Shown one piece after another: positions 10,565 to 23,676 of a stretch of DNA of 64,000 bases (the stretch's first letter is position 1; each line of letters starts with the position of its first letter). Origin of the DNA: a virus; the IMG/VR virus record IMGVR_UViG_3300031972_002446, positions 1-64,000 of that record. One strand, given 5' to 3'. The translations under genes and the position numbers were made by a program. The notes below the pieces were generated by a model. It saw only the letters and a list, made by a program, of their open reading frames with translations, had not been told where the DNA came from and did no database searches.

Positions 10565-10882
10565 TCATACATTCTTGAAAGGTTTATTTTTGATTTTATA
10601 TAAATATTTTTTAGAATCTTCTATTACATTAGTATTCCAGCTTTTATAGTTCATCAAGTGACCAAATATAAAATGGCAGTACTTATCACAAAGAGTAATT
10701 AAATTATCAGGATCCAACTCTTTTGATGGATCTAGATGTACTGGTATAATATGATGCACTTCTGGTCTTTTGCATGATCCACAAGCCTGACAACAAGGTT
10801 GCTTTTCTATATGCTCTTTGCGCAAGGCTGCCCAACCGGGAGACCGAACAGCATAACGAATTTTTTTATTAAAAGGCCACAT
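10565..10882 (-). CDS. HNH endonuclease
   Basis: CQACG...VHHIIP...NLITLC...CH. Confidence 0.85.
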   Translation of the reverse strand: MWPFNKKIRYAVRSPGWAALRKEHIEKQPCCQACGSCKRPEVHHIIPVHLDPSKELDPDNLITLCDKYCHFIFGHLMNYKSWNTNVIEDSKKYLYKIKNKPFKNV

Positions 10883-11886
10883 TAGTCTAAAATGGAAGCC
10901 GCTATAAGGCATCCTTTAGATACTGAGTGCAGAGGGTCTTCTGCATGCTTTACTTCTTCAATAGGTAAAGGAAACTCAGCTTCGAGTAATTTTTCATTCA
11001 GTTTTTCTATATAACCATCTGCTCTCGATGTTCCGCCAGCAACAACAATTCTAATCGGATCTTTAAATTTAGGAAGGGCTTTATGTCCAGATAAAGCAGC
11101 TGAAAGTTGTTTAGCTGTATACTCTATTAATCTTTCATAATAAGAAGCTACTGCTCCAAGTACTGCGTTTTCGTTAGGTTCACCAACCTTAAAACCACCT
11201 CCCTCTTTTTCTACTTGAACAACACTATCTGGCTCTCCGGTTGCTACAGCACTCATACGATCAACCCAATCTCCAGATTTTGTTGTACTGAATACTACAG
11301 TAGGTTCTCCATTAAGCATAACACATACATTTGTCATGCCAGCTCCGCAACTTATACCGATACCAGTATAATCACTAGACTCTAACTCTGCATAACATAA
11401 TGCTTCAGCTTCATTGATTGCTCTAGCATCATAACCAGTTTCTGCAAGTATAGCCGTGACTACATCTTCATGATATCCAACATCAAAGTCATCATCTTCT
11501 TGATCAACTGGTTGAGCAGGAACGCAGAATACTAATTTTTCGCCGGGTTCAGATGCTTGCCCGACTACTTCTTTTAATATATAAGCAAGAACTCTTTTCG
11601 CTTCTTTTTCTTTGACTGATACCACTCCACGATACATAGGTCTTCTAGCAGCTTCGTTTCTTTCCACTGCTTTTTCTATTGCGTCTTTACCTAGAATAAT
11701 AAATGAACCATCGGTATCTTTAACAAATACTTTACCAGCCAAACCTTTTTCAATCATTTTTGTAGCGATTGGTGTTGTTGGTTTAATTACATAAAAAGCA
11801 TCTCTAAAATCTTTAAATCTTATATTATCTCCTTCATAAGAAGATAAAACTATAAAACTTGTACCTACGTCTAAACCTTTACTCAT
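10882..11886 (-). CDS. Actin-fold ATPase (MreB/MamK/FtsA superfamily)
   Basis: GLDVGTS (phosphate 1), INEAEA (connect 1), SCGAGMTN (phosphate 2), VVAGGTS (adenosine), DPLHSVSKG (connect 2). Confidence 0.88.
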   Translation of the reverse strand: MSKGLDVGTSFIVLSSYEGDNIRFKDFRDAFYVIKPTTPIATKMIEKGLAGKVFVKDTDGSFIILGKDAIEKAVERNEAARRPMYRGVVSVKEKEAKRVLAYILKEVVGQASEPGEKLVFCVPAQPVDQEDDDFDVGYHEDVVTAILAETGYDARAINEAEALCYAELESSDYTGIGISCGAGMTNVCVMLNGEPTVVFSTTKSGDWVDRMSAVATGEPDSVVQVEKEGGGFKVGEPNENAVLGAVASYYERLIEYTAKQLSAALSGHKALPKFKDPIRIVVAGGTSRADGYIEKLNEKLLEAEFPLPIEEVKHAEDPLHSVSKGCLIAASILD

Positions 11887-11887
11887 A

Positions 11888-12190
11888 TCATTTACCCTTC
11901 ATGTTTTTCAGTTTATTAATGGCTGACTGAGTATTATCTTTCTTGCTTGTTGTGTTACCCAGTTTTTTACTGCTTTTACTCATACTATCTGTAGATACAC
12001 CTAAAACTATCTTTTTGTCGTTTATATCTATTTTTACAGACTTTTCTTGCTGTTTACTATTTTTATCAAAAAAACTTTTAGGTTTTTGAGAATGCTCTAT
12101 ATTATTCTTATTTAAGATATATTTTTCAAAGAATATACCAAATGTAAACATAAGAAATAATAGTATAAATACCATCATTTGTTCTATCAT
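11888..12190 (-). CDS. Small protein with N-terminal transmembrane helix and basic C-terminus
   Basis: MMVFILLFLMFTFGIFF; ends 1 nt before the actin start. Confidence 0.7.
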   Translation of the reverse strand: MIEQMMVFILLFLMFTFGIFFEKYILNKNNIEHSQKPKSFFDKNSKQQEKSVKIDINDKKIVLGVSTDSMSKSSKKLGNTTSKKDNTQSAINKLKNMKGK

Positions 12191-15971: not shown

Positions 15972-16742
15972 TTAATCTAATGAAATTTGGTGATCTTGAA
16001 ATTTATTTCCATATACATCTTCGCCGTTAAAATACCTTCTACCATTTCTATGTCTTTTTTGTTGATCTGCACCTGCTCTTTCCAGACCATGTTGTTTAGC
16101 GCATTCTCTCTCTTTTGTTATATCGTCTTCAGATAAAATGTCAATCACATTGGTGAGAGTAAAGTTATCTATGAAATGTCTTGGGTAAGGAATAAAACAA
16201 CCTAAAATATCTCCTTTTTTAATCTTTATATTATAATTTGGTCTTGTTATCCTTAGATTAAAAGTAAAATCACGCCTTAAATTATCAGATTCAATAACTC
16301 CTGTCATATGATAAATACCGTCTATATAATGATTAGGCGGATTTATTGTCATTAAATTAATACCATCTGGAGTACGTAGAGAAAATGTTGTTTGTATTGT
16401 TATTGTACCCATACCGAAATGACTTTTTATAGACTGCAAAGCATTCAACTCGGCATGTTCTGTATCATTATGATGAGTAACCTTAACATCATTCGGACTG
16501 TTTCCCCCATTCCAGTTAACTGTAATATCGTAAAGACTTTTCATAATGAAACCATGCTGATTACCCATAACTAAAGGTAAACAAAAGTAAGCATGTTGAA
16601 CAAACCAATCTCTTTTTATTTGTCCTTTTAGGCTACTAAAAAGCATATTAACATACTCTTGCTTTTGCCATTTATCATCGTGTGCTATTAGACATATATT
16701 ATCTTTTGGTATTAAATCACTCATGTAAATAACAACCCCCAA
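15972..16742 (-). CDS. DUF6065-like protein
   Basis: RDWF...AYFCLPL.MGNQHG, SHFG.G, GVIESD. Confidence 0.7.
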   Translation of the reverse strand: MGVVIYMSDLIPKDNICLIAHDDKWQKQEYVNMLFSSLKGQIKRDWFVQHAYFCLPLVMGNQHGFIMKSLYDITVNWNGGNSPNDVKVTHHNDTEHAELNALQSIKSHFGMGTITIQTTFSLRTPDGINLMTINPPNHYIDGIYHMTGVIESDNLRRDFTFNLRITRPNYNIKIKKGDILGCFIPYPRHFIDNFTLTNVIDILSEDDITKERECAKQHGLERAGADQQKRHRNGRRYFNGEDVYGNKFQDHQISLD

Positions 16743-17761
16743 CTATCAGACACTTTATTAGTAATTTTTACATCTTCTTTTGTCTTATCAATTTCTTCAT
16801 CTTCTTTTGTCTTATCAATTTCTTCAAATTCTTTTTTAAAGAAATAAGAATATTCAATTCTCATTTGATTTGTTTGCATCTCGTAGGGAACCCAAAAAAT
16901 AGATTTACCAGAAGAATAATGTATAACATATATTTTTTCTTGTATGTCAGAGATATACGATCCAGTATCTTTAAGATTAATTGTATATCGAGGCCACTCC
17001 TCTGTATTAATATCCTTTCCATTAATTCTATATATCACTGGGTCTGCTGGATGGGTTATCTCTTCATAATTCAGTTCCTCATATTTTAATCCCATGTCCA
17101 TTAAAGTAAACTGACCACAATACTGTTCATTAAAATACTCATAACCCTCAAGCATTGTTTCGTCAATTTTTTTTGCTTCTAAAAGTTTACGACCTTTCTT
17201 CGAGAGATACATACGCTTTTTGACTATATTATTATACAGACTTTTTTTATTTCTAATAGATTTTGAGTCAATTATAAATTGCCCACTGTTCATATTTTTA
17301 ATATCAGGATATAATATATCATTAACAGGATCAATACATGATAAAGTCCATAACTTACCGTTTTCATATTTATTAAAAAAATCAGATGGATTTCTTACAA
17401 ACATAGAGTCGCAATCTAGGAAGAAAATTTTATCATAACCCATCTGCAACGCTTTTTGTAAATGATACCATTTAGACATATATGAGTCATGCTTGTAAGG
17501 TCTTTTGCGAACGACCTTATACTTATTAGTGTAGTCTGTTTTCACACACTTAACAAAATCAAAATCTGTAGATATATTATATTTATCATTTAATTTAAAA
17601 TGATTTATATCAATATTATCATAAAGATAATAAAAAACTAAAACATCGAAAGAATTATCATAAACTTCTGATAAAGTCTTTAAAGAATAGTATGCCATAG
17701 AATAATATTTCATATCCCATTCATTATCTATAAACATTGAATAATATAAGCAGTTTTTCAT
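16721..17761 (-). CDS. GT8-like glycosyltransferase
   Basis: KIFFLDCD, MNSGQF, NEQ, VIHY. Confidence 0.65.
   Translation of the reverse strand: MKNCLYYSMFIDNEWDMKYYSMAYYSLKTLSEVYDNSFDVLVFYYLYDNIDINHFKLNDKYNISTDFDFVKCVKTDYTNKYKVVRKRPYKHDSYMSKWYHLQKALQMGYDKIFFLDCDSMFVRNPSDFFNKYENGKLWTLSCIDPVNDILYPDIKNMNSGQFIIDSKSIRNKKSLYNNIVKKRMYLSKKGRKLLEAKKIDETMLEGYEYFNEQYCGQFTLMDMGLKYEELNYEEITHPADPVIYRINGKDINTEEWPRYTINLKDTGSYISDIQEKIYVIHYSSGKSIFWVPYEMQTNQMRIEYSYFFKKEFEEIDKTKEDEEIDKTKEDVKITNKVSDSWGLLFT
16771..16826. repeat. Perfect 27-nt tandem duplication (EEIDKTKED x2)
   Basis: catcttcttttgtcttatcaatttctt repeated twice. Confidence 0.95.
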
Positions 17762-18663
17762 ACTGGGGCTTTTCTAGATATAATTCTACCTTTTTGTGTT
17801 CTGTGTATATATCCCATTCTTATCATATAAGGCTCTATACTATTCTCTATAGTCTCTTGTGCTATACCTGTCATGCTAGAAATACTTTTTATACCTAAAG
17901 GAATTGTTCTATTTTTCTTTAATATCTTAATATATGTAATATCATTTTCATCGAAACCATTGCAATCTATACCTTGGCTAGAAAACACTTCATCAATATC
18001 ATTTTTTTCTGGATAGTATTCTGTATAACTTTTATACCACTGTAGTCTTGCATTTAATATTCTAGGAGTACCTTTGCTTCTTTTTGCTATTTCAAAAGCC
18101 TGCTCTTTGCTTAAAGATATACCTGTTCTATCAGCATTCGACCTTGCTAGTTCTGCTAAGACATCTAGACTATAAAAAGAAAGATGCTCTTTAATTGTGA
18201 AGCGATCATAAAAAGGCTGACTTAAACTACCCCCACTAGTAGTTGCCCCAATTAAAGTAAACACTGGAACATCAATAGAGTCTGGTTTATTTTCTACAAG
18301 CATATCTATACGAAAATCTTCCATCACAGGATACAAAAATTCTTCTACTAACTTAGGTAATCTGTGTATCTCGTCTATAAATAATACAGATTTAGTTGTC
18401 ATACCTATAAGATAGGGTATGATATTCTTAGGGCTACGAATCATAGCAGCGTTTACTGTATAAATACTGACACCCATTTCGTTAGCAATAGCATTAGATA
18501 AGGTCGTCTTACCGAGGCCGGGAGGCCCGTCTATTAATATGTGTGGCATAACGCCATCATTTTTTTTACTACCAGCACAGAGGATTCTCAGGCGAGATAC
18601 CACATCATCCTGACCTATAACGTCTTTAAAAGAACAAGGTCTATACGCATTGCCCATCTGCAT
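17758..18663 (-). CDS. ruvB: Holliday junction branch migration helicase RuvB
   Basis: RP..F.DVIGQ, GPPGLGKTT, LFIDEIHRL, LYPVMEDF, FTLIGATT, GTPR, IEPY. Confidence 0.95.
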   Translation of the reverse strand: MQMGNAYRPCSFKDVIGQDDVVSRLRILCAGSKKNDGVMPHILIDGPPGLGKTTLSNAIANEMGVSIYTVNAAMIRSPKNIIPYLIGMTTKSVLFIDEIHRLPKLVEEFLYPVMEDFRIDMLVENKPDSIDVPVFTLIGATTSGGSLSQPFYDRFTIKEHLSFYSLDVLAELARSNADRTGISLSKEQAFEIAKRSKGTPRILNARLQWYKSYTEYYPEKNDIDEVFSSQGIDCNGFDENDITYIKILKKNRTIPLGIKSISSMTGIAQETIENSIEPYMIRMGYIHRTQKGRIISRKAPV

Positions 18664-19117
18664 TTACTCCAATCTTTTGTATTGCTAATTTTACCAATAT
18701 TTTAACATCCTGATGTTTAGTTTCATCAAAAATTTCTTTAATCATTTCTGATGCTTCTTTTTTCTCGAAACCGTATTGTTCTAAAATAGCCGTACATTGT
18801 TTGAGAACTTTCTTATCAATCTTTATTTTCTTAGGTTCTGTAGAAGTTTGAGGTCTTTGCTCCTGATTGCTTGCAGAATCATTTTCCTCATTTTCTTTTG
18901 AGAAAAAGTCAATTTTACCTTCTTTATATATAATCTCAATATTTTTAATAGGTTTTGGAACAATGATAGATTTACAATCACATACTATCTTGTAGTTTTT
19001 TGTTGAAGCCTCAACAGAACTAAGCCAATGATTAAAACCACAGTTAGGACATATATACTCATAGTAAATATCGTGGCTACTAGGTTTTGCTTTAAGTATT
19101 TTCTTGATCTTTTTCAT
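18641..19117 (-). CDS. Zn-ribbon protein with C-terminal RuvA domain III-like helix bundle
   Basis: CPNC...CDC N-terminus; C-terminal AILEQYGFEKKEASEMI...LVKLAI resembles RuvA_C; overlaps ruvB start. Confidence 0.65.
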   Translation of the reverse strand: MKKIKKILKAKPSSHDIYYEYICPNCGFNHWLSSVEASTKNYKIVCDCKSIIVPKPIKNIEIIYKEGKIDFFSKENEENDSASNQEQRPQTSTEPKKIKIDKKVLKQCTAILEQYGFEKKEASEMIKEIFDETKHQDVKILVKLAIQKIGVNADGQCV

Positions 19118-19514
19118 TTTTATTTACCCAAAATATAAAGTCATTACGTTCTGCATCAAAAGCAGTTTCCAATAATCCTTTTCCAACCATACGCTGAACA
19201 ATATTTGATACAAACCTAGAATTTATTGCTTCCAAGATGTTTTCGTAATCCTCATCCCGTATGAATAATCTGATCTGTTTTGTTTTTTTATGTCTTTTTC
19301 TTATGATAAATTCATTAAAAATTATTTTAATTTCTTTGTGAGGTAAAATATCATTCATCTCTGCTAGTTCTATGTTATTGAACTTTGATAGGTTTTGAAA
19401 AAAGGTTTGATCTTCTTGATCTCTTTTATTAGGATCAAAATTGGAATAGATGAGTCGCCTGCTAAAGTCTATCAATTTATCTAAATTCTCTATTTCTAAC
19501 CAGTCTTGATCCAT
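19092..19514 (-). CDS. Hypothetical protein
   Basis: ORF with RBS, coupled to downstream gene. Confidence 0.6.
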   Translation of the reverse strand: MDQDWLEIENLDKLIDFSRRLIYSNFDPNKRDQEDQTFFQNLSKFNNIELAEMNDILPHKEIKIIFNEFIIRKRHKKTKQIRLFIRDEDYENILEAINSRFVSNIVQRMVGKGLLETAFDAERNDFIFWVNKNEKDQENT

Positions 19515-19525
19515 AATATCTACCT

Positions 19526-19924
19526 TTAATTTAAATTATCGTACAGACCTTTATAGTACTCTGGCTGTTGAACAAAATAAGATGCGTGTGATTGAATATG
19601 TTTTTTATATTGCTGATCTATCTTATCATTGATAAAATATTTAATTTTCCAAATTGCTTCATCATAATTATTATTACCTAGATATACAAAGCATTTATCG
19701 CTTAAAGAACCTTTGTTTTGCAGGTTATTACCAACTAACCATACATCGTCTTTCTCTTTTATTATATCCGACATAGCATCTTTAAGCCATTCTTCCCAAG
19801 CGGCCCAATCTATTTGAAATTCTTTGGGATATCCATGTTCATTATATTCATTAAATTGCCCGCCATCAGGATAATATTTGTATTCATCATCATCATAATC
19901 TTCATGTTCTGGTTCGTGATGCAT
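19526..19924 (-). CDS. Hypothetical acidic protein
   Basis: ORF track. Confidence 0.55.
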   Translation of the reverse strand: MHHEPEHEDYDDDEYKYYPDGGQFNEYNEHGYPKEFQIDWAAWEEWLKDAMSDIIKEKDDVWLVGNNLQNKGSLSDKCFVYLGNNNYDEAIWKIKYFINDKIDQQYKKHIQSHASYFVQQPEYYKGLYDNLN

Positions 19925-20096: not shown

Positions 20097-20936
20097 TTAA
20101 AATTCTTCGTCGTCTTCGTCTTCAAACTGATCCCAGTAATCTTCGTCGTACTCATCATAAACTGTTGAGTATTCATCTTCATCAACATAAGAGTCTGCCT
20201 CAAATTCAGCCTTATAAAGAGGCTTCGGTAGTTCTCCCTGATAAAGACCGACTACTTCATATTTACAAGTGCGAAGTTTTTCACAGTTGCAATCGCTAGG
20301 AACACTAACAACATCTTCAGGATTGATTTTAACAATCACAATATTATCACCAGCATCCACATTGCCATAATTTGCAACATAATTTAATGCCCCAGCATGA
20401 AGTCCAGCAGAACATCCTCTACCTCTATTGTCGTCTACCTTTGCTCGACGCATTTCGCAGACCTGACCAACCTTATTGTCGAATGTTCCTTTCCACTTGT
20501 CTTTAAAGTCACTATTGACTGCCTTGTATGCAAGGAAGCACCCATCTTCAGTGATAGGAAGATTTTCATGCTCCAAGAAGTCATACAGTTCTTGCTGGCT
20601 CTGCATACTTGGATTCTCCATAAGATTTTCCAAGAACTTTACAAGAGGCTCAAAGGGTAATCCCTTACTCATAAACTCTATAATTCTCTTGCTGATGCTG
20701 CCGTGAACTTCTTCACCCTCAAACATCACCTTGCCATTTACGATTGATACTTGTCCGTCACTAAAGGTAGTAATCGCTTTTTCAATATCTACCAGTTCTA
20801 GCAACTCATCTTCTGTTGCTGTTGGAAGTGCTTCCAGAATTAACTTGTAATTAGTATGATCTGGAATTACTTGGTGAGCCTTATTCTTTAAGATCACCGT
20901 TAAGTTACCGTCAACCCACATAAAAGGAACACTCAT
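20097..20936 (-). CDS. rIIB: T4 rIIB-like protein
   Basis: ITEDGCFLAYK, CSAGLH, VKINPEDVVSVP..D...KLRTCKYEVV. Confidence 0.9.
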   Translation of the reverse strand: MSVPFMWVDGNLTVILKNKAHQVIPDHTNYKLILEALPTATEDELLELVDIEKAITTFSDGQVSIVNGKVMFEGEEVHGSISKRIIEFMSKGLPFEPLVKFLENLMENPSMQSQQELYDFLEHENLPITEDGCFLAYKAVNSDFKDKWKGTFDNKVGQVCEMRRAKVDDNRGRGCSAGLHAGALNYVANYGNVDAGDNIVIVKINPEDVVSVPSDCNCEKLRTCKYEVVGLYQGELPKPLYKAEFEADSYVDEDEYSTVYDEYDEDYWDQFEDEDDEEF

Positions 20937-20961: not shown

Positions 20962-23607
20962 CTAAACCAAATTTCCTACTGCTGTTCTCAGTTCGCTGAG
21001 TTCAACATTGTCAAACCATTTATCTCGACCATAGTAACCATTGTTGTGAATATCTGTAGGAGAATCATTCTTGATCTTCTCAATATCCAACTCATCGTTA
21101 CCACTAACAATATACTTTAGTATCGGTGAACTGTCAATAGCACCTTTAAGAATTTTTCTAAGAGCATCCATCTTAGGCAGGGTCTTGATGATCTCCTGAC
21201 TGCGTGATTTCTTACCAGATGGCAATTCTTCGTAACCATATAGTTTCTTAAATTCACAAAGCATATTGTCTAGTTTAAGAATTTTAGTGTGAATATCTTT
21301 TGCATCTTCTACGATGTTGTATTCACCTGCTATATTATTTACATGCTGTTCAAGTCTTTGCCTACTAAATACCCTAAGATTAAAGTATTCACTATTTGCA
21401 ACCTGAGCAAAGTAGTACATAAGCAGCCATTGATCCATAGCCTTGGTGACTGTCTCGTTTTTAATATAGTCTTTGTAGTCAAGACCATAGATATTTAAAA
21501 GATTAGCCATTACAACTCTATCTGAACGCTCAGGCTGACTACTCCAACTTCTTTGCTTCTTAAAATCTGAAGTAGAATACTCTTTGTCACAGTAGTTTAT
21601 GACTGCATCATACTTACCTACTTCTTCTCTTAATTTCTTAGACATTTTTGCAGCCTTACTCTTAAACCATTTGTTAAAGCAAACTAGATTGATACCTTGC
21701 TTTTGTAGTTTAGATACAGAGCCTTGCTTGATAGCATAAATATTATATTTCTTGAATAGCAAAGCCCCTAAGACGTTATCTTTACCTGCTAGACTATAAA
21801 TACTATGAATGGCGGGATAAGGGCTAACAGAAGCATATCTAGTAATAGGAACATAGATTACTTGGTCAGCATCTTCTAGTTCTTCTACCAGACTATCACT
21901 TAATTCACTAAGCATATTAGAGTCATTAAGATTATTACCGCTAAGATCAGAACACTCATCCGGCTGATAATCTTTAGAACTTTTTAGTAGAAAGATTTCG
22001 TCTTTACTAATCATACCAGCACCAGTACCAGTTCTTCCCTTGGTGCTAGATTGCAGCAGACTACGGTACTCAGAGATATTCTTGACATTCTCTTCTCCAC
22101 CAATATCTTTGATAAGTTTAGTAAAACCTTCGCCAGAATCTTCTGCTGGGTTTTGAGTGTCTACCATAAGATATGCCATACAATCATTCTGATTACAATA
22201 TCTAATAGCAATCTTCTTGGCAGTTTCAGGACTTCTAGTATCGCAGACAAAGAAGGCTAGAGGATTACTCTTACGCTTATTATCCCAATAATTAGACGAT
22301 CTACCCTGTAGACTTTCATGATGGATTTTATCTGTTAGATATAGCATTCTCTTGGAACGATGACTAGCAGTACGATAATTAATAACATACAACTGTTTAT
22401 GCTTACCTAATTTATAATCTAAATCTTCACCAGCAGACAAATCATGTTTTTTACCTTCTGGATCGACCCACTCTGCACCAGCAGTATATCCACCAGCAAT
22501 ATCAGCCAACTTATAATATGTCTGGTAAGCATCTATAAGATTAGTACACTCTTCAACTTTGGTTGACATATTGCTCTTGAGTTGCAAATAAATATCTTGA
22601 GTCTTTTCTCTAAGAGTTTTAATAACACCCTTGGTATACTGTAGACCTTCTCTACTAACATCCATCTCTAGTTCACCAATATCGCAGGTAATTTCAAGAT
22701 ACATGCCAGAGTTTAGAATCTCTTTGACTAAGTTAGTCCAATTATCTACATCTGCTTTCTTAAATGCTCTGTTCCATCGCTGGATAGCATCACTCTTTTG
22801 CTCTTGTTCTTCTTTGCCGATAATTTTATCGGAATCTACTGGGTACGCAATATTACCCATGATAGCGACAATACCAGCACCGGGACTATTATATGTGCTA
22901 GGATATTTGTCATCATTATCAGAGATTCTACCAACACGCCAGTTCTTCCCTTCTATAATAACATTATGGTGACAATACGCATGGTTCTGAAGAAGATTAC
23001 AAGTACCACCCTCCATCATTGGCTTAGTCTTAAAGTAATGAAAGATTCTCTTAGACTTATTAGTAAACTCTTGGAAATCACTTTGTTTGACTGCAAAACT
23101 AATTTCAAGACCGTTAGGTTCATCAGTATGAGTGACCCCAAACAAACTTAGACTAGGTACTCCACCTTCATCCATAGCCGCTATGTAGTTGTACGCTTTG
23201 CCATTGAAGAAAGAAGTTGTGCTAAAACTCTTAGTGTAAGCAAATGGACTCTTAGAACCAAGACCAAGACAACCAGTAAAATCGTTACTGTCATTCTTGT
23301 TACTAGCCCCATAAGTTGTATAGAGTTCTTCCATGTCTTCTTGAGAAAGTCCTGTACCATAATCTCTCACCGTAAAGTTAGGGTTGGCTTGCGTAGGCAA
23401 ACTAACCTTGAAAGGATTTCTATTCCCTGATGCAACATGAGCATCGTTAGCATTTGTAGACAGTTCACGAATAACTGCCATTACTTTATCAGAATACAAT
23501 GAGTCTGATAAAATCTTGAACATTTTACTTGTTTGAGCAATACTAAACTGATTGCTTGCATCAACACCGTTTGAGTGAATTTCAACTGTACGATCTGCGA
23601 GTTTCAT
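20962..23607 (-). CDS. rIIA: T4 rIIA-like protein (N-terminal GHKL/HATPase_c)
   Basis: LYSDK..AVIRELSTNA.DAH, VRDYGTGLS, GLGSKSPFAY, SREGL; start at MKLAD with GGAG RBS, downstream of promoter. Confidence 0.9.
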   Translation of the reverse strand: MKLADRTVEIHSNGVDASNQFSIAQTSKMFKILSDSLYSDKVMAVIRELSTNANDAHVASGNRNPFKVSLPTQANPNFTVRDYGTGLSQEDMEELYTTYGASNKNDSNDFTGCLGLGSKSPFAYTKSFSTTSFFNGKAYNYIAAMDEGGVPSLSLFGVTHTDEPNGLEISFAVKQSDFQEFTNKSKRIFHYFKTKPMMEGGTCNLLQNHAYCHHNVIIEGKNWRVGRISDNDDKYPSTYNSPGAGIVAIMGNIAYPVDSDKIIGKEEQEQKSDAIQRWNRAFKKADVDNWTNLVKEILNSGMYLEITCDIGELEMDVSREGLQYTKGVIKTLREKTQDIYLQLKSNMSTKVEECTNLIDAYQTYYKLADIAGGYTAGAEWVDPEGKKHDLSAGEDLDYKLGKHKQLYVINYRTASHRSKRMLYLTDKIHHESLQGRSSNYWDNKRKSNPLAFFVCDTRSPETAKKIAIRYCNQNDCMAYLMVDTQNPAEDSGEGFTKLIKDIGGEENVKNISEYRSLLQSSTKGRTGTGAGMISKDEIFLLKSSKDYQPDECSDLSGNNLNDSNMLSELSDSLVEELEDADQVIYVPITRYASVSPYPAIHSIYSLAGKDNVLGALLFKKYNIYAIKQGSVSKLQKQGINLVCFNKWFKSKAAKMSKKLREEVGKYDAVINYCDKEYSTSDFKKQRSWSSQPERSDRVVMANLLNIYGLDYKDYIKNETVTKAMDQWLLMYYFAQVANSEYFNLRVFSRQRLEQHVNNIAGEYNIVEDAKDIHTKILKLDNMLCEFKKLYGYEELPSGKKSRSQEIIKTLPKMDALRKILKGAIDSSPILKYIVSGNDELDIEKIKNDSPTDIHNNGYYGRDKWFDNVELSELRTAVGNLV

Positions 23608-23647
23608 CTGTGATAGTCTCCAAAAGTTAATTTCTTGTGATAGCCTA

Positions 23648-23676
23648 AGTATACTATCGGATACATAGGTTGTCAA
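23648..23676 (-). promoter_or_regulatory. Sigma70-type promoter for rIIA
   Basis: TTGACA-acctatgtatccgatag(17)-TATACT. Confidence 0.8.

What the first reader, a model, noticed from the sequence alone, without database searches (positions are those of the whole stretch)
17758..19117. RuvB motor paired with a Zn-ribbon/RuvA-domain-III chimera instead of RuvA
Seen: ruvB is overlapped by an upstream 158-aa ORF. Its C-terminal ~50 aa (LKQCTAILEQYGFEKKEASEMIKEIF...VKILVKLAIQKI) match the pattern of RuvA domain III (AL..LG[YF]...EA...V...LI..AL). Its N-terminus is a CPNC...CDC Zn-ribbon plus a low-complexity linker, not an OB-fold plus HhH. The RuvB beta-hairpin (RIDMLVENKPDSIDV) also looks shorter than in bacterial RuvB. 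Known: domain III is the RuvB-docking module, binding that hairpin, while RuvA domains I-II bind the Holliday junction. Inference: a phage adaptor redirects the RuvB translocase to a different substrate, such as forks, packaging or recombination intermediates, or protein-DNA complexes. The coupled ORF 19092-19514 could be a third component. I know of no description of this architecture.
Basis: partly seen in the sequence, partly recalled or inferred. Interest (0 to 1): 0.82.

Follow-up and report, generated by a model that had tools for sequence, protein, structure and literature searches.

The report
Phage RuvB with a mini-RuvA adaptor
A large marine phage carries the DNA motor RuvB but no RuvA. 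Instead it has a small protein that keeps only RuvA's RuvB-docking domain, joined to a zinc ribbon, which suggests a natural way of re-aiming this motor.

Summary
ruvB (17758-18663, minus strand) is overlapped by a 158-aa ORF (18641-19117).

That ORF has three parts:
- a zinc ribbon with four invariant cysteines
- a disordered linker of very variable length
- a three-helix C-terminal module homologous to RuvA domain III (D3), the part of RuvA that docks on and activates RuvB

Evidence for D3 homology:
- Family profiles hit RuvA D3 first in the PDB (E 1.4e-4 and 2.5e-4).
- A full-length RuvA model matches only this spot in the 166-kb genome.
- Two structure aligners rank RuvA D3 first.
- A sister viral family (membrane anchor + D3) passes Pfam's RuvA_C cut-off.
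- RuvA L167 and L170, essential for RuvB activation, align to a conserved Leu and an aromatic residue.

Four complete genomes of the clade have no RuvA_N match. This genome also has no RuvC, RusA or endonuclease VII, but it does encode RecA. The order 140-aa gene, adaptor, ruvB holds in 21 of 23 related viral loci, and also when searched from the adaptor side. The family has about 474 clusters, apparently all viral. Predicted docking on RuvB got only "weak support".

What the zinc ribbon binds, and so whether the motor is aimed at something other than a Holliday junction, is untested. This is a new variant of RuvAB, and I found no description of it.

The parts
17758..18663 (-). ruvB (301 aa; more likely 299 aa from the ATG at 18657). 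An intact AAA+ dsDNA translocase whose presensor-1 beta-hairpin is 4 residues shorter than in bacterial RuvB.
   Evidence: RuvB_N 160 bits, AAA_lid_4 and RuvB_C all over their cut-offs. PDB RuvB hits at E about 1e-63, with a 4-residue gap in the hairpin. Walker A and B, sensor 1, Arg finger, sensor 2 and the basic residues of the C-terminal hairpin are invariant in the clade.
18641..19117 (-). Adaptor gene (158 aa): zinc ribbon, flexible linker, RuvA-domain-III-like module.
   Evidence: The family has 474 cluster representatives.
18938..19084 (-). Zinc-ribbon domain (residues about 12-60). C23, C26, C46 and C48 are invariant. A Lys-rich N-terminal tail precedes it.
   Evidence: Alignment A1. 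pLDDT 85-91. Only generic zinc-ribbon matches.
18815..18937 (-). Linker (residues about 61-101), disordered and low-complexity. It is 5 to 70 residues long in the 17 aligned homologues.
   Evidence: pLDDT below 50 for residues 72-96. Lengths.
18665..18814 (-). D3 module (residues 102-151): a three-helix bundle homologous to RuvA domain III. L112, Y115, G116 and F117 align to RuvA L167, L170, G171 and Y172.
   Evidence: for homology. for the role of L167 and L170.
19092..19514 (-). 140-aa co-conserved partner gene, overlapping the adaptor start by 26 nt. It folds confidently but its function is unknown.
   Evidence: Present upstream of the adaptor in 21 of 21 loci that have one and in L030 and L032-L034. 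Absent together with the adaptor from complete genome G001. pLDDT 85. No clear structural match.
19526..19924 (-). 132-aa acidic protein, syntenic between rIIB and the 140-aa gene.
20097..20936 (-). rIIB homologue, upstream neighbour in the same direction.
   Evidence: phrog_609, E=1.4e-71.
20962..23676 (-). rIIA homologue with a GHKL ATPase N-terminal domain.
   Evidence: phrog_612, E=4.8e-110. HATPase_c_3 below cut-off (22.8 bits against a cut-off of 25).
21109..21137 (-). Promoter-like site (TTGACA-17-TATATT) upstream of rIIB. It may drive the run from rIIB to ruvB.
   Evidence: This is a consensus match only. There is no minus-strand terminator-like site, and no equally good promoter-like site, between here and ruvB.

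Best explanation
The 158-aa protein is a minimal RuvB adaptor. Its C-terminal three-helix module is a diverged RuvA domain III.

Proposed mechanism, by analogy with RuvA-D3: the module docks on the phage RuvB's hydrophobic surface formed by helix alpha3 and the presensor-1 hairpin. There it both tethers the hexamer and drives its nucleotide cycle. A flexible linker connects it to a zinc-ribbon domain that supplies the targeting. That domain probably binds DNA, or the co-encoded 140-aa protein, and so takes the place of RuvA's junction-binding domains I and II.

With the phage RecA, the module most likely moves branched recombination or replication intermediates of the phage genome without any RuvA tetramer.

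Shown:
- the domain architecture
- D3 homology
- an intact RuvB
- no detectable RuvA
- conserved, overlapping gene order

Inferred:
- physical binding to the phage RuvB
- activation of RuvB
- what the zinc ribbon binds
- the DNA substrate
For: D3 homology:
- The 16-sequence profile of the C-terminal module has RuvA as its six best PDB hits, all aligned in domain III (E 1.4e-4 to 2.7e-3).
- The 120-sequence profile's best hit is 1ixs_A, the RuvA D3 crystallised with RuvB. It aligns across all three helices (E 2.5e-4).
- The full-length RuvA model TIGR00084 matches one place in the 166-kb genome, namely this C-terminus, at model positions 144-202 of 202 (E 1.6e-4). PF07499 gives the same single place.
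- RuvA_C is the Pfam family hit by the most homologues (7 of 17, best E 0.0017).
- Foldseek ranks 1-5 and 7-11 are RuvA. TM by target is 0.74-0.82 against the isolated D3 chains, and rmsd is 1.2-1.6 A for most of the ten.
- VIA-align's top 4 of 48,161 chains are RuvA D3: Z 7.3-7.9, rmsd 1.5-2.0 A, 48-51 residues aligned. The next, unrelated, hit has Z 6.2.
- A sister viral family (TM helix + linker + D3) passes Pfam's RuvA_C cut-off at 31.5 bits. It matches the adaptor profile at E 3.8e-7 and by hhalign at 80-84% probability, E about 1e-5.
- RuvA L167 and L170 are needed for RuvB activity but not for junction binding (PMC2628435). They align to the family's conserved Leu and to Tyr/Phe/Leu. 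G171 aligns to the invariant Gly.

Pairing with RuvB:
- The stop and start codons overlap.
- The order 140-aa gene, adaptor, ruvB holds in 21 of 23 loci found through RuvB.
- It also holds in every long-enough contig found through distant adaptors.

Docking prediction: weak support.
- ipSAE is 0.55 and the best of 3 controls is 0.02.
- The mark was reached by 58 of 80 solved complexes and 2 of 110 mismatched pairs.
- At 0.60 or under, it was reached by only 7 of those 80 solved complexes and by both mismatches that passed.
- The runs agree in at least 68% of their contacts, and the partner's pLDDT is at least 80.
- Because RuvA-D3/RuvB complexes have been solved, this pass may reflect likeness to them rather than binding by this copy.

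No RuvA:
- No RuvA_N match in this genome or in three other complete genomes of the clade.
- No HhH match on this protein.
- No RuvC.

Other context:
- RuvB's catalytic and DNA-binding residues are invariant.
- RecA is present.
- D3 acts as a nucleotide-exchange factor and fulcrum as well as a tether (PMC9477746).
Against: - The window protein itself is below Pfam's RuvA_C cut-off (13.4-14.9 bits against 24).
- Sequence E-values stay near 1e-4. A three-helix UBA-like bundle is a common fold, and VIA Z values below 8 can arise by chance for small domains.
- The complex verdict is only 'weak support', and no interface was reported.
- A complete relative (G001) keeps RuvB with neither the adaptor nor the 140-aa gene, so RuvB can exist without them.
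- In the TM-D3 clade the D3 gene lies about 21 kb from ruvB.
- The net charge of the zinc-ribbon domain ranges from -2 to +13 across homologues, which does not fit a simple conserved DNA-binding surface.
- A roughly 60-residue zinc-ribbon domain is not an obvious substitute for the RuvA tetramer platform.
Confidence: 0.65

Rival explanations
1. Host-directed decoy or hijacker. The D3 module targets the host's RuvB rather than the phage's. It either blocks host RuvAB by competing with host RuvA or captures host RuvB for phage use.
For: RuvA-D3 is a self-contained RuvB-binding module. RuvA and RuvB complement each other across species (PMC9477746). D3 genes need not sit beside ruvB (TM-D3 clade). 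One relative has RuvB without an adaptor.
Against: The adaptor and ruvB overlap and stay adjacent in more than 20 loci, from both search directions. This is the usual signature of a cognate pair. The phage RuvB has its own altered hairpin, and the pair gave a predicted interface well above controls (weak support). The host is unknown, so nothing could be tested against a host RuvB.
Confidence: 0.12
2. The C-terminal bundle is a generic UBA-like three-helix domain with a different partner, and the protein is, for example, a small zinc-ribbon regulator. Its position next to ruvB reflects operon packing rather than a physical partnership.
For: The single-sequence Pfam score is below cut-off. UBA, CUE and EF-Ts domains appear lower in the structural lists. 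A designed helical repeat protein intrudes at rank 2 of one profile search.
Against: The sequence profiles pick RuvA and no other natural UBA-like family. The RuvB-contact residues are the conserved ones. The bridging family passes the RuvA_C cut-off. Finding the only RuvA-like segment of a 166-kb genome directly upstream of the only ruvB is unlikely by chance.
Confidence: 0.08
3. Anchor for a DNA pump. D3 adaptors (zinc-ribbon or membrane-anchored) fix RuvB to a stationary structure, such as the membrane or an rIIA/rIIB complex. RuvB then reels duplex DNA, for example during genome internalisation, segregation or replication anchoring, rather than migrating junctions.
For: A sister family replaces the zinc ribbon with an N-terminal TM helix. 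The positive residues after the helix put D3 in the cytoplasm. In both clades the D3 gene lies directly after, or a few genes after, rIIA-rIIB. D3 acts as a fulcrum for a lever that pulls DNA.
Against: There is no evidence that the zinc-ribbon form is membrane- or rII-associated. RecA is present, which fits recombination. The rII linkage may be inherited gene order. Nothing here tests any interaction with rII proteins.
Confidence: 0.12

Closest known systems
Bacterial RuvA (of the RuvAB branch-migration complex; PDB 1IXR/1IXS, 7PBL series, 7X7Q)
   Same: The C-terminal three-helix domain III, joined by a flexible linker. The hydrophobic residues equivalent to L167, L170 and Y172 and the Gly equivalent to G171 are conserved. 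The gene sits immediately upstream of ruvB, as ruvA does in many bacteria.
   Different: It has no OB-fold domain I and no HhH domain II, so it lacks the tetramer platform and the known junction-binding surface. A 4-Cys zinc ribbon sits in their place. The linker is 5-70 residues long in the aligned homologues, against about 15 in E. coli RuvA. The protein is 158 aa against about 200.
Isolated RuvA domain III as used in structural work (1IXS; 7X7P, dsDNA-RuvB-RuvA domain 3)
   Same: A D3 without RuvA's junction-binding domains I and II that still binds RuvB. According to the literature D3 regulates branch migration and raises RuvB ATPase activity.
   Different: Those are laboratory truncations. 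Here a natural protein family carries D3 on a different targeting domain.
Viral TM-linker-D3 family (P0151-P0159; L028:1495-1941)
   Same: It has the same logic (a targeting module, a Pro/Lys-rich linker, then D3), occurs in related marine phages that also encode RuvB, and sits in the rIIA-rIIB neighbourhood.
   Different: The N-terminus is a membrane anchor instead of a zinc ribbon. Its D3 is closer to canonical RuvA_C (31.5 bits). The gene is not adjacent to ruvB. The family is small (9 clusters).
Tethering adaptors of other AAA+ motors (e.g. SspB for ClpX; from general knowledge)
   Same: The design principle: a cargo-binding domain, a flexible linker, and a small motor-docking element.
   Different: They are unrelated in sequence and fold, and they serve protein unfoldases rather than a DNA translocase.

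Membership tests
RuvA (full-length; TIGR00084 / PF01330 + PF14520 + PF07499) | Domain I OB-fold (RuvA_N) | tested here: not met
   No RuvA_N hit on the protein or anywhere in the genome (the control search matched in 10 bacterial genomes). The model shows a zinc ribbon instead.
RuvA (full-length; TIGR00084 / PF01330 + PF14520 + PF07499) | Domain II with two helix-hairpin-helix motifs | tested here: not met
   No HHH_5 hit on the protein. The weak genome hits lie elsewhere, at about 160.3 kb and 49.7 kb.
RuvA (full-length; TIGR00084 / PF01330 + PF14520 + PF07499) | Score over the curated whole-protein cut-off (85 bits) | tested here: not met
   17.8 bits, covering only model positions 144-202.
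RuvA_C domain (PF07499, RuvA domain III) | Score over the Pfam gathering cut-off (24 bits) | tested here: not met
   The window protein scores 13.4-14.9 bits. The best E-value in the family is 0.0017. The sister TM-D3 family scores 31.5 bits.
RuvA_C domain (PF07499, RuvA domain III) | Profile-level sequence homology to solved RuvA D3 | tested here: met
   The top PDB hits are RuvA D3, E 1.4e-4 and 2.5e-4 across all three helices. hhalign to the TM-D3 family gives 80-84% probability.
RuvA_C domain (PF07499, RuvA domain III) | Three-helix fold that superposes on D3 | tested here: met
   VIA Z 7.3-7.9, rmsd 1.5-2.0 A over 48-51 residues, ranks 1-4. Foldseek TM by target 0.74-0.82 against isolated D3 chains.
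RuvA_C domain (PF07499, RuvA domain III) | Hydrophobic RuvB-contact residues (E. coli L167, L170) | tested here: met
   They align to L112 and Y115. In 148 representatives the positions are mostly L and Y/F/L/V/I. Their role is taken from PMC2628435.
RuvA_C domain (PF07499, RuvA domain III) | Binds RuvB | tested here: inconclusive
   Complex prediction gave weak support: ipSAE 0.55 with the best control at 0.02, and possibly from likeness to solved complexes. This needs biochemistry.
RuvB (PF05496 / PF17864 / PF05491) | The three RuvB domains over their cut-offs | tested here: met
   160.1, 31.9 and 74.8 bits. PDB RuvB hits at E about 1e-63.
RuvB (PF05496 / PF17864 / PF05491) | Walker A and B, sensor 1, Arg finger, sensor 2, and basic residues of the DNA-binding C-terminal hairpin | tested here: met
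   All are invariant in alignment A3. PaRuvB R314, R317 and R319 align to R, K and R.
RuvB (PF05496 / PF17864 / PF05491) | Presensor-1 beta-hairpin (the D3 docking site) | tested here: met
   Present, but 4 residues shorter than in PaRuvB, probably at the hairpin turn. The shortening is clade-wide.
Zinc ribbon (4-Cys) | Two Cys pairs on a small beta fold | tested here: met
   C23, C26, C46 and C48 are invariant. The strands are modelled with confidence. All Pfam zinc-ribbon families score below their cut-offs. Metal binding cannot be tested here.

The most novel reading that the evidence does not exclude
RuvA domain III is a portable RuvB-recruiting module in a lineage of large marine phages. 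It is fused either to a zinc ribbon or to a membrane anchor and is kept in the rIIA-rIIB neighbourhood. In this reading RuvB is held on a fixed structure (the membrane or an rII complex) and works as a duplex-DNA pump rather than as a Holliday-junction motor. That would also give the long-enigmatic rII proteins a DNA-handling partner.
Probability: 0.12. Interest if true: 0.85.

Novelty: new variant of a known kind. Interest (0 to 1): 0.66.

Why it matters
RuvAB is the textbook branch-migration machine, and RuvA is normally thought necessary to load RuvB and aim it at junctions. This finding is a large viral family, with about 474 clusters at 50% identity. It keeps only the motor-docking and motor-activating domain of RuvA and puts it on a different targeting domain. 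A sister family puts the same domain on a membrane anchor.

If the pairing is confirmed, it would be a natural experiment that separates two jobs of RuvA: activating RuvB (D3 as nucleotide-exchange factor and fulcrum) and recognising the junction. It would show that RuvB can be retargeted in a modular way, as AAA+ proteases are by their adaptors. It would also point to how large marine phages process recombination or replication intermediates. The residues to mutate and the constructs to make are already clear from the alignments.

Tried and rejected
- **Isolated phages.** Nucleotide and protein searches of the locus and the adaptor against 50,697 phage records found nothing. RuvB's best matches there are below 40% identity. 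Most are unannotated fragments, or records that probably carry bacterial flanking DNA, so no cultured relative was identified. rIIA gave only distant matches.
- **Zinc ribbon.** The profile against the PDB, and the Atlas search, gave only generic zinc-ribbon matches. The best was E 0.039, to a gliding-motility protein's ribbon. No function can be read from it.
- **140-aa partner.** The sequence profile against the PDB (best E 0.36, AdcR), Foldseek (MarR-type hits at low probability and high rmsd) and VIA-align (best Z 5.1, tied with unrelated chains) gave no assignment. The winged-helix idea remains a hint only.
- **Fused forms.** A search for adaptors fused to RuvB or to the 140-aa protein, among proteins of 351-2000 aa, found none. 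The tool calls this weak evidence.
- **140-aa family in G001 and G002.** No match. G002 is a 22% fragment, so only G001 is informative.
- **Hairpin co-variation.** I considered that the shortened RuvB hairpin co-varies with the zinc-ribbon adaptor and rejected the idea. The shortening is also present where the adaptor is absent or replaced.
- **HHH_5 hits.** I considered that the weak HHH_5 hits could be a hidden RuvA domain II and rejected it. They lie at about 160.3 kb and 49.7 kb, not here.
- **Literature.** Searches for phage RuvB/RuvA_C/zinc-ribbon combinations found nothing relevant. One hit was a false lead, the ruvAC genes.
Full report
**What is there.** The window is the first 64 kb of a 165,940-bp viral contig that CheckV rates as complete. 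On the minus strand a run of same-direction genes reads:
- rIIA (20962-23676)
- rIIB (20097-20936)
- an acidic 132-aa protein (19526-19924)
- a 140-aa protein (19092-19514)
- the 158-aa ORF of the finding (18641-19117)
- ruvB (17758-18663)
- a glycosyltransferase-like gene and a DUF6065 gene

The 140-aa gene overlaps the 158-aa gene by 26 nt. The 158-aa gene overlaps ruvB by 23 nt. That overlap is 17 nt if ruvB starts at the second ATG (18657), which matches the homologues' N-termini and has GGAG 9 nt upstream. No strong minus-strand promoter-like or terminator-like site lies between a TTGACA-17-TATATT site upstream of rIIB and ruvB. A single transcription unit is therefore plausible but not shown.

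**RuvB is a real, intact RuvB.** All three RuvB Pfam domains score over their cut-offs, and solved RuvBs match at E about 1e-63 over the whole length. Walker A and B, sensor 1, the arginine finger and sensor 2 are invariant across 13 viral homologues. The three basic residues of the C-terminal hairpin that contact DNA in P. aeruginosa RuvB (R314, R317, R319; PMC10071043) align to R, K and R.

The presensor-1 beta-hairpin, which is the D3 docking site, is 4 residues shorter than in P. aeruginosa RuvB, probably at the hairpin turn. However, this is a trait of the whole viral clade. It is also present in a genome with no adaptor and in one whose D3 protein is membrane-anchored.

**Anatomy of the 158-aa protein.** Seventeen homologues align with four invariant cysteines (C23, C26, C46, C48) and two invariant glycines in the C-terminal module. 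The AlphaFold model, built on that alignment, shows three parts:
- a zinc-ribbon domain (residues about 12-60, pLDDT 85-91)
- a disordered stretch (residues 72-96, pLDDT below 50)
- a three-helix bundle (residues 102-151, pLDDT about 80)

The linker is 5 to 70 residues long in the aligned homologues. The net charge of the ribbon domain ranges from -2 to +13.

**Is the C-terminal bundle RuvA domain III?** On its own the protein scores below Pfam's cut-off (E=0.11). The case rests on several lines that agree:
1. A 16-sequence profile of the module has RuvA as its six best PDB hits, all in domain III (E 1.4e-4 to 2.7e-3). A 120-sequence profile puts 1ixs_A first, aligned across all three helices (E 2.5e-4). 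1ixs_A is the T. thermophilus D3 crystallised on RuvB.
2. The full-length RuvA model TIGR00084 matches exactly one place in the genome, this C-terminus, at model positions 144-202 of 202 (E 1.6e-4). PF07499 finds the same single place.
3. RuvA_C is the Pfam family hit by the most homologues (7 of 17).
4. Foldseek ranks 1-5 and 7-11 are RuvA, aligned over 45-51 columns. TM by target is 0.74-0.82 against the isolated D3 chains. An independent aligner ranks RuvA D3 first to fourth among 48,161 chains (Z 7.3-7.9, rmsd 1.5-2.0 A, 48-51 residues). The next, unrelated, chain has Z 6.2.
5. A sister viral family passes the RuvA_C cut-off (31.5 bits). It matches the adaptor profile at E 3.8e-7 and by hhalign at 80-84% probability.
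6. The conserved residues are the functional ones. E. coli RuvA L167A and L170A abolish RuvB activity in vivo without affecting junction binding in vitro (PMC2628435, citing Nishino 1998). In the alignments L167, L170, G171 and Y172 correspond to L112, Y115, G116 (invariant) and F117. Across 148 representatives these positions are mostly L, Y/F/L/V/I and F/Y.

I rate D3 homology at about 0.9.

**Is it paired with RuvB?** Starting from RuvB, 21 of 23 related viral loci have the 140-aa gene, the adaptor and ruvB in that order. Starting from distant adaptors, every contig long enough shows ruvB immediately downstream and a 129-146-aa gene upstream.

The profile finds 474 cluster representatives among 1.84 billion proteins. 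The 150 listed are all 107-215 aa long, and 148 of those 150 carry the D3 module. The nearest Atlas clusters are 94-100% viral, and in one of them half the members carry an automatic RuvA_C hit.

A docking prediction of D3 (residues 98-158) on RuvB gave weak support:
- ipSAE was 0.55 and the best of three controls was 0.02.
- The mark was reached by 58 of 80 solved complexes and 2 of 110 mismatched pairs.
- At 0.60 or under, it was reached by only 7 of the 80 and by both mismatches that passed.
- The runs agree in at least 68% of contacts, and the partner's pLDDT is at least 80.

Because RuvA-D3/RuvB complexes have been solved, the pass may reflect likeness rather than binding by this copy. 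No interface was reported.

**No RuvA.** RuvA_N is absent from this genome and from three other complete genomes of the clade. The only weak HhH hits lie elsewhere in the genome. RuvC, RusA and endonuclease VII were not found. A RecA-family recombinase is present at 143,190-143,993.

**How it most likely works.** In bacteria, D3 docks on a hydrophobic surface of RuvB made of helix alpha3 and the presensor-1 hairpin. It tethers the motor to the RuvA-junction core, acts as a nucleotide-exchange factor, and serves as the fulcrum of the lever that pulls DNA (PMC9477746).

The adaptor keeps that module and its flexible tether, but replaces the junction-binding tetramer platform with a zinc ribbon. 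My best reading (0.65) is that it binds and activates the phage RuvB and ties it to whatever the ribbon recognises. With RecA present, that points to branched recombination or replication intermediates of the phage genome.

The 140-aa protein is a plausible third subunit. It is translationally coupled, present wherever the adaptor is, and absent together with the adaptor from complete genome G001. It folds confidently (pLDDT 85) but has no convincing structural relative.

Binding, activation, the ribbon's target and the DNA substrate are all inferences.

**The unexpected extra.** In a more distant viral clade (RuvB 45% identical), the gene right after rIIA-rIIB encodes an N-terminal transmembrane helix, a Pro/Lys-rich linker and a near-canonical D3. 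The positive residues after the helix place D3 in the cytoplasm. In the one contig of this clade that also holds ruvB (G002), the two genes lie about 21 kb apart. The family has 9 clusters.

D3 therefore appears on at least two different N-terminal modules in related phages, each time in the rII neighbourhood. This supports the idea that D3 is a portable recruiter of RuvB. It also keeps open a less conventional reading, in which RuvB is held on a fixed structure and pumps duplex DNA.

**Rivals.**
- A host-directed decoy or hijacker of host RuvB (0.12) fits the self-contained nature of D3 and the non-adjacent TM-D3 genes. It fits poorly with the overlapping, conserved adaptor-ruvB pair.
- A generic UBA-like domain with another partner (0.08) fits poorly with the RuvA-specific profile hits and the conserved contact residues.
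- The anchor-for-a-pump reading (0.12) rests on the TM-D3 family and the rII linkage only.

**Novelty.** I found no description of this architecture in the held literature and no cultured phage relative. Databases hold the proteins as hypothetical, and a minority carry automatic RuvA_C hits. The protein fails membership of RuvA, because domains I and II were tested and are absent, but it contains a domain III homologue. I class it as a new variant of the RuvAB system.

Noticed in passing
L028:1495-1941 (-), in G002 (the contig of L025); also P0151-P0159, L035:6001-6363 and L036:6001-6363: A small viral family made of an N-terminal transmembrane helix, a Pro/Lys-rich linker and a RuvA_C domain over Pfam's cut-off. 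It is encoded immediately after rIIA-rIIB and followed by a DUF1501 gene. In G002 its ruvB lies about 21 kb away.
   Followed up: partly
L022:3593-4004 (G001, a 151-kb complete viral genome): This relative keeps RuvB (63% identical) directly after rIIB and a 64-aa remnant of the acidic protein. It has neither the adaptor, nor the 140-aa gene, nor any RuvA_C or RuvA_N match anywhere in the genome. Here RuvB exists without any detectable D3 partner.
   Followed up: partly
window 18657-18663: ruvB more likely starts at the second ATG (18657, MGNAYRP...). That start aligns with the homologues' N-termini and has GGAG 9 nt upstream, whereas GGAG is only 3 nt from the first ATG.
   Followed up: yes
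window 23608-23676: The listed rIIA ORF starts at a TTG that lies inside a near-consensus promoter-like site (TTGACA-17-TATACT, 23676-23648). The true start is probably the internal Met (MKLADRT...), which is where the L022 homologue begins.
   Followed up: no
window 15972-16742 (-); L015, L017, L018, L026 and L027 immediately downstream of ruvB: A DUF6065 protein (E=7.6e-39) lies near ruvB here and overlaps the ruvB stop codon in several relatives. It may be a further conserved neighbour of RuvB. Its function is unknown.
   Followed up: no
L032-L034 downstream of ruvB; L016:3704-5004; window 10882-12190: In several relatives ruvB is followed by a roughly 100-aa protein and then an actin-fold ATPase (Pfam Volactin). 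In L016 the small protein has a hydrophobic N-terminus, suggesting a membrane anchor. In this window the corresponding pair lies about 6 kb downstream.
   Followed up: no
G000:C1:143190-143993 (-), outside the window: A RecA-family recombinase (69 bits, over cut-off). No RuvC, RusA or endonuclease VII resolvase was detected in the genome, so how junctions would be resolved is open.
   Followed up: partly
window 19526-19924 (-): A 132-aa protein with a strongly acidic, Tyr-rich N-terminus and a conserved C-terminal ...YY(K/R)G(L/M)(F/Y)(D/E)x(L/M)N end. It is syntenic between rIIB and the 140-aa gene in nearly all relatives and matches no family.
   Followed up: no
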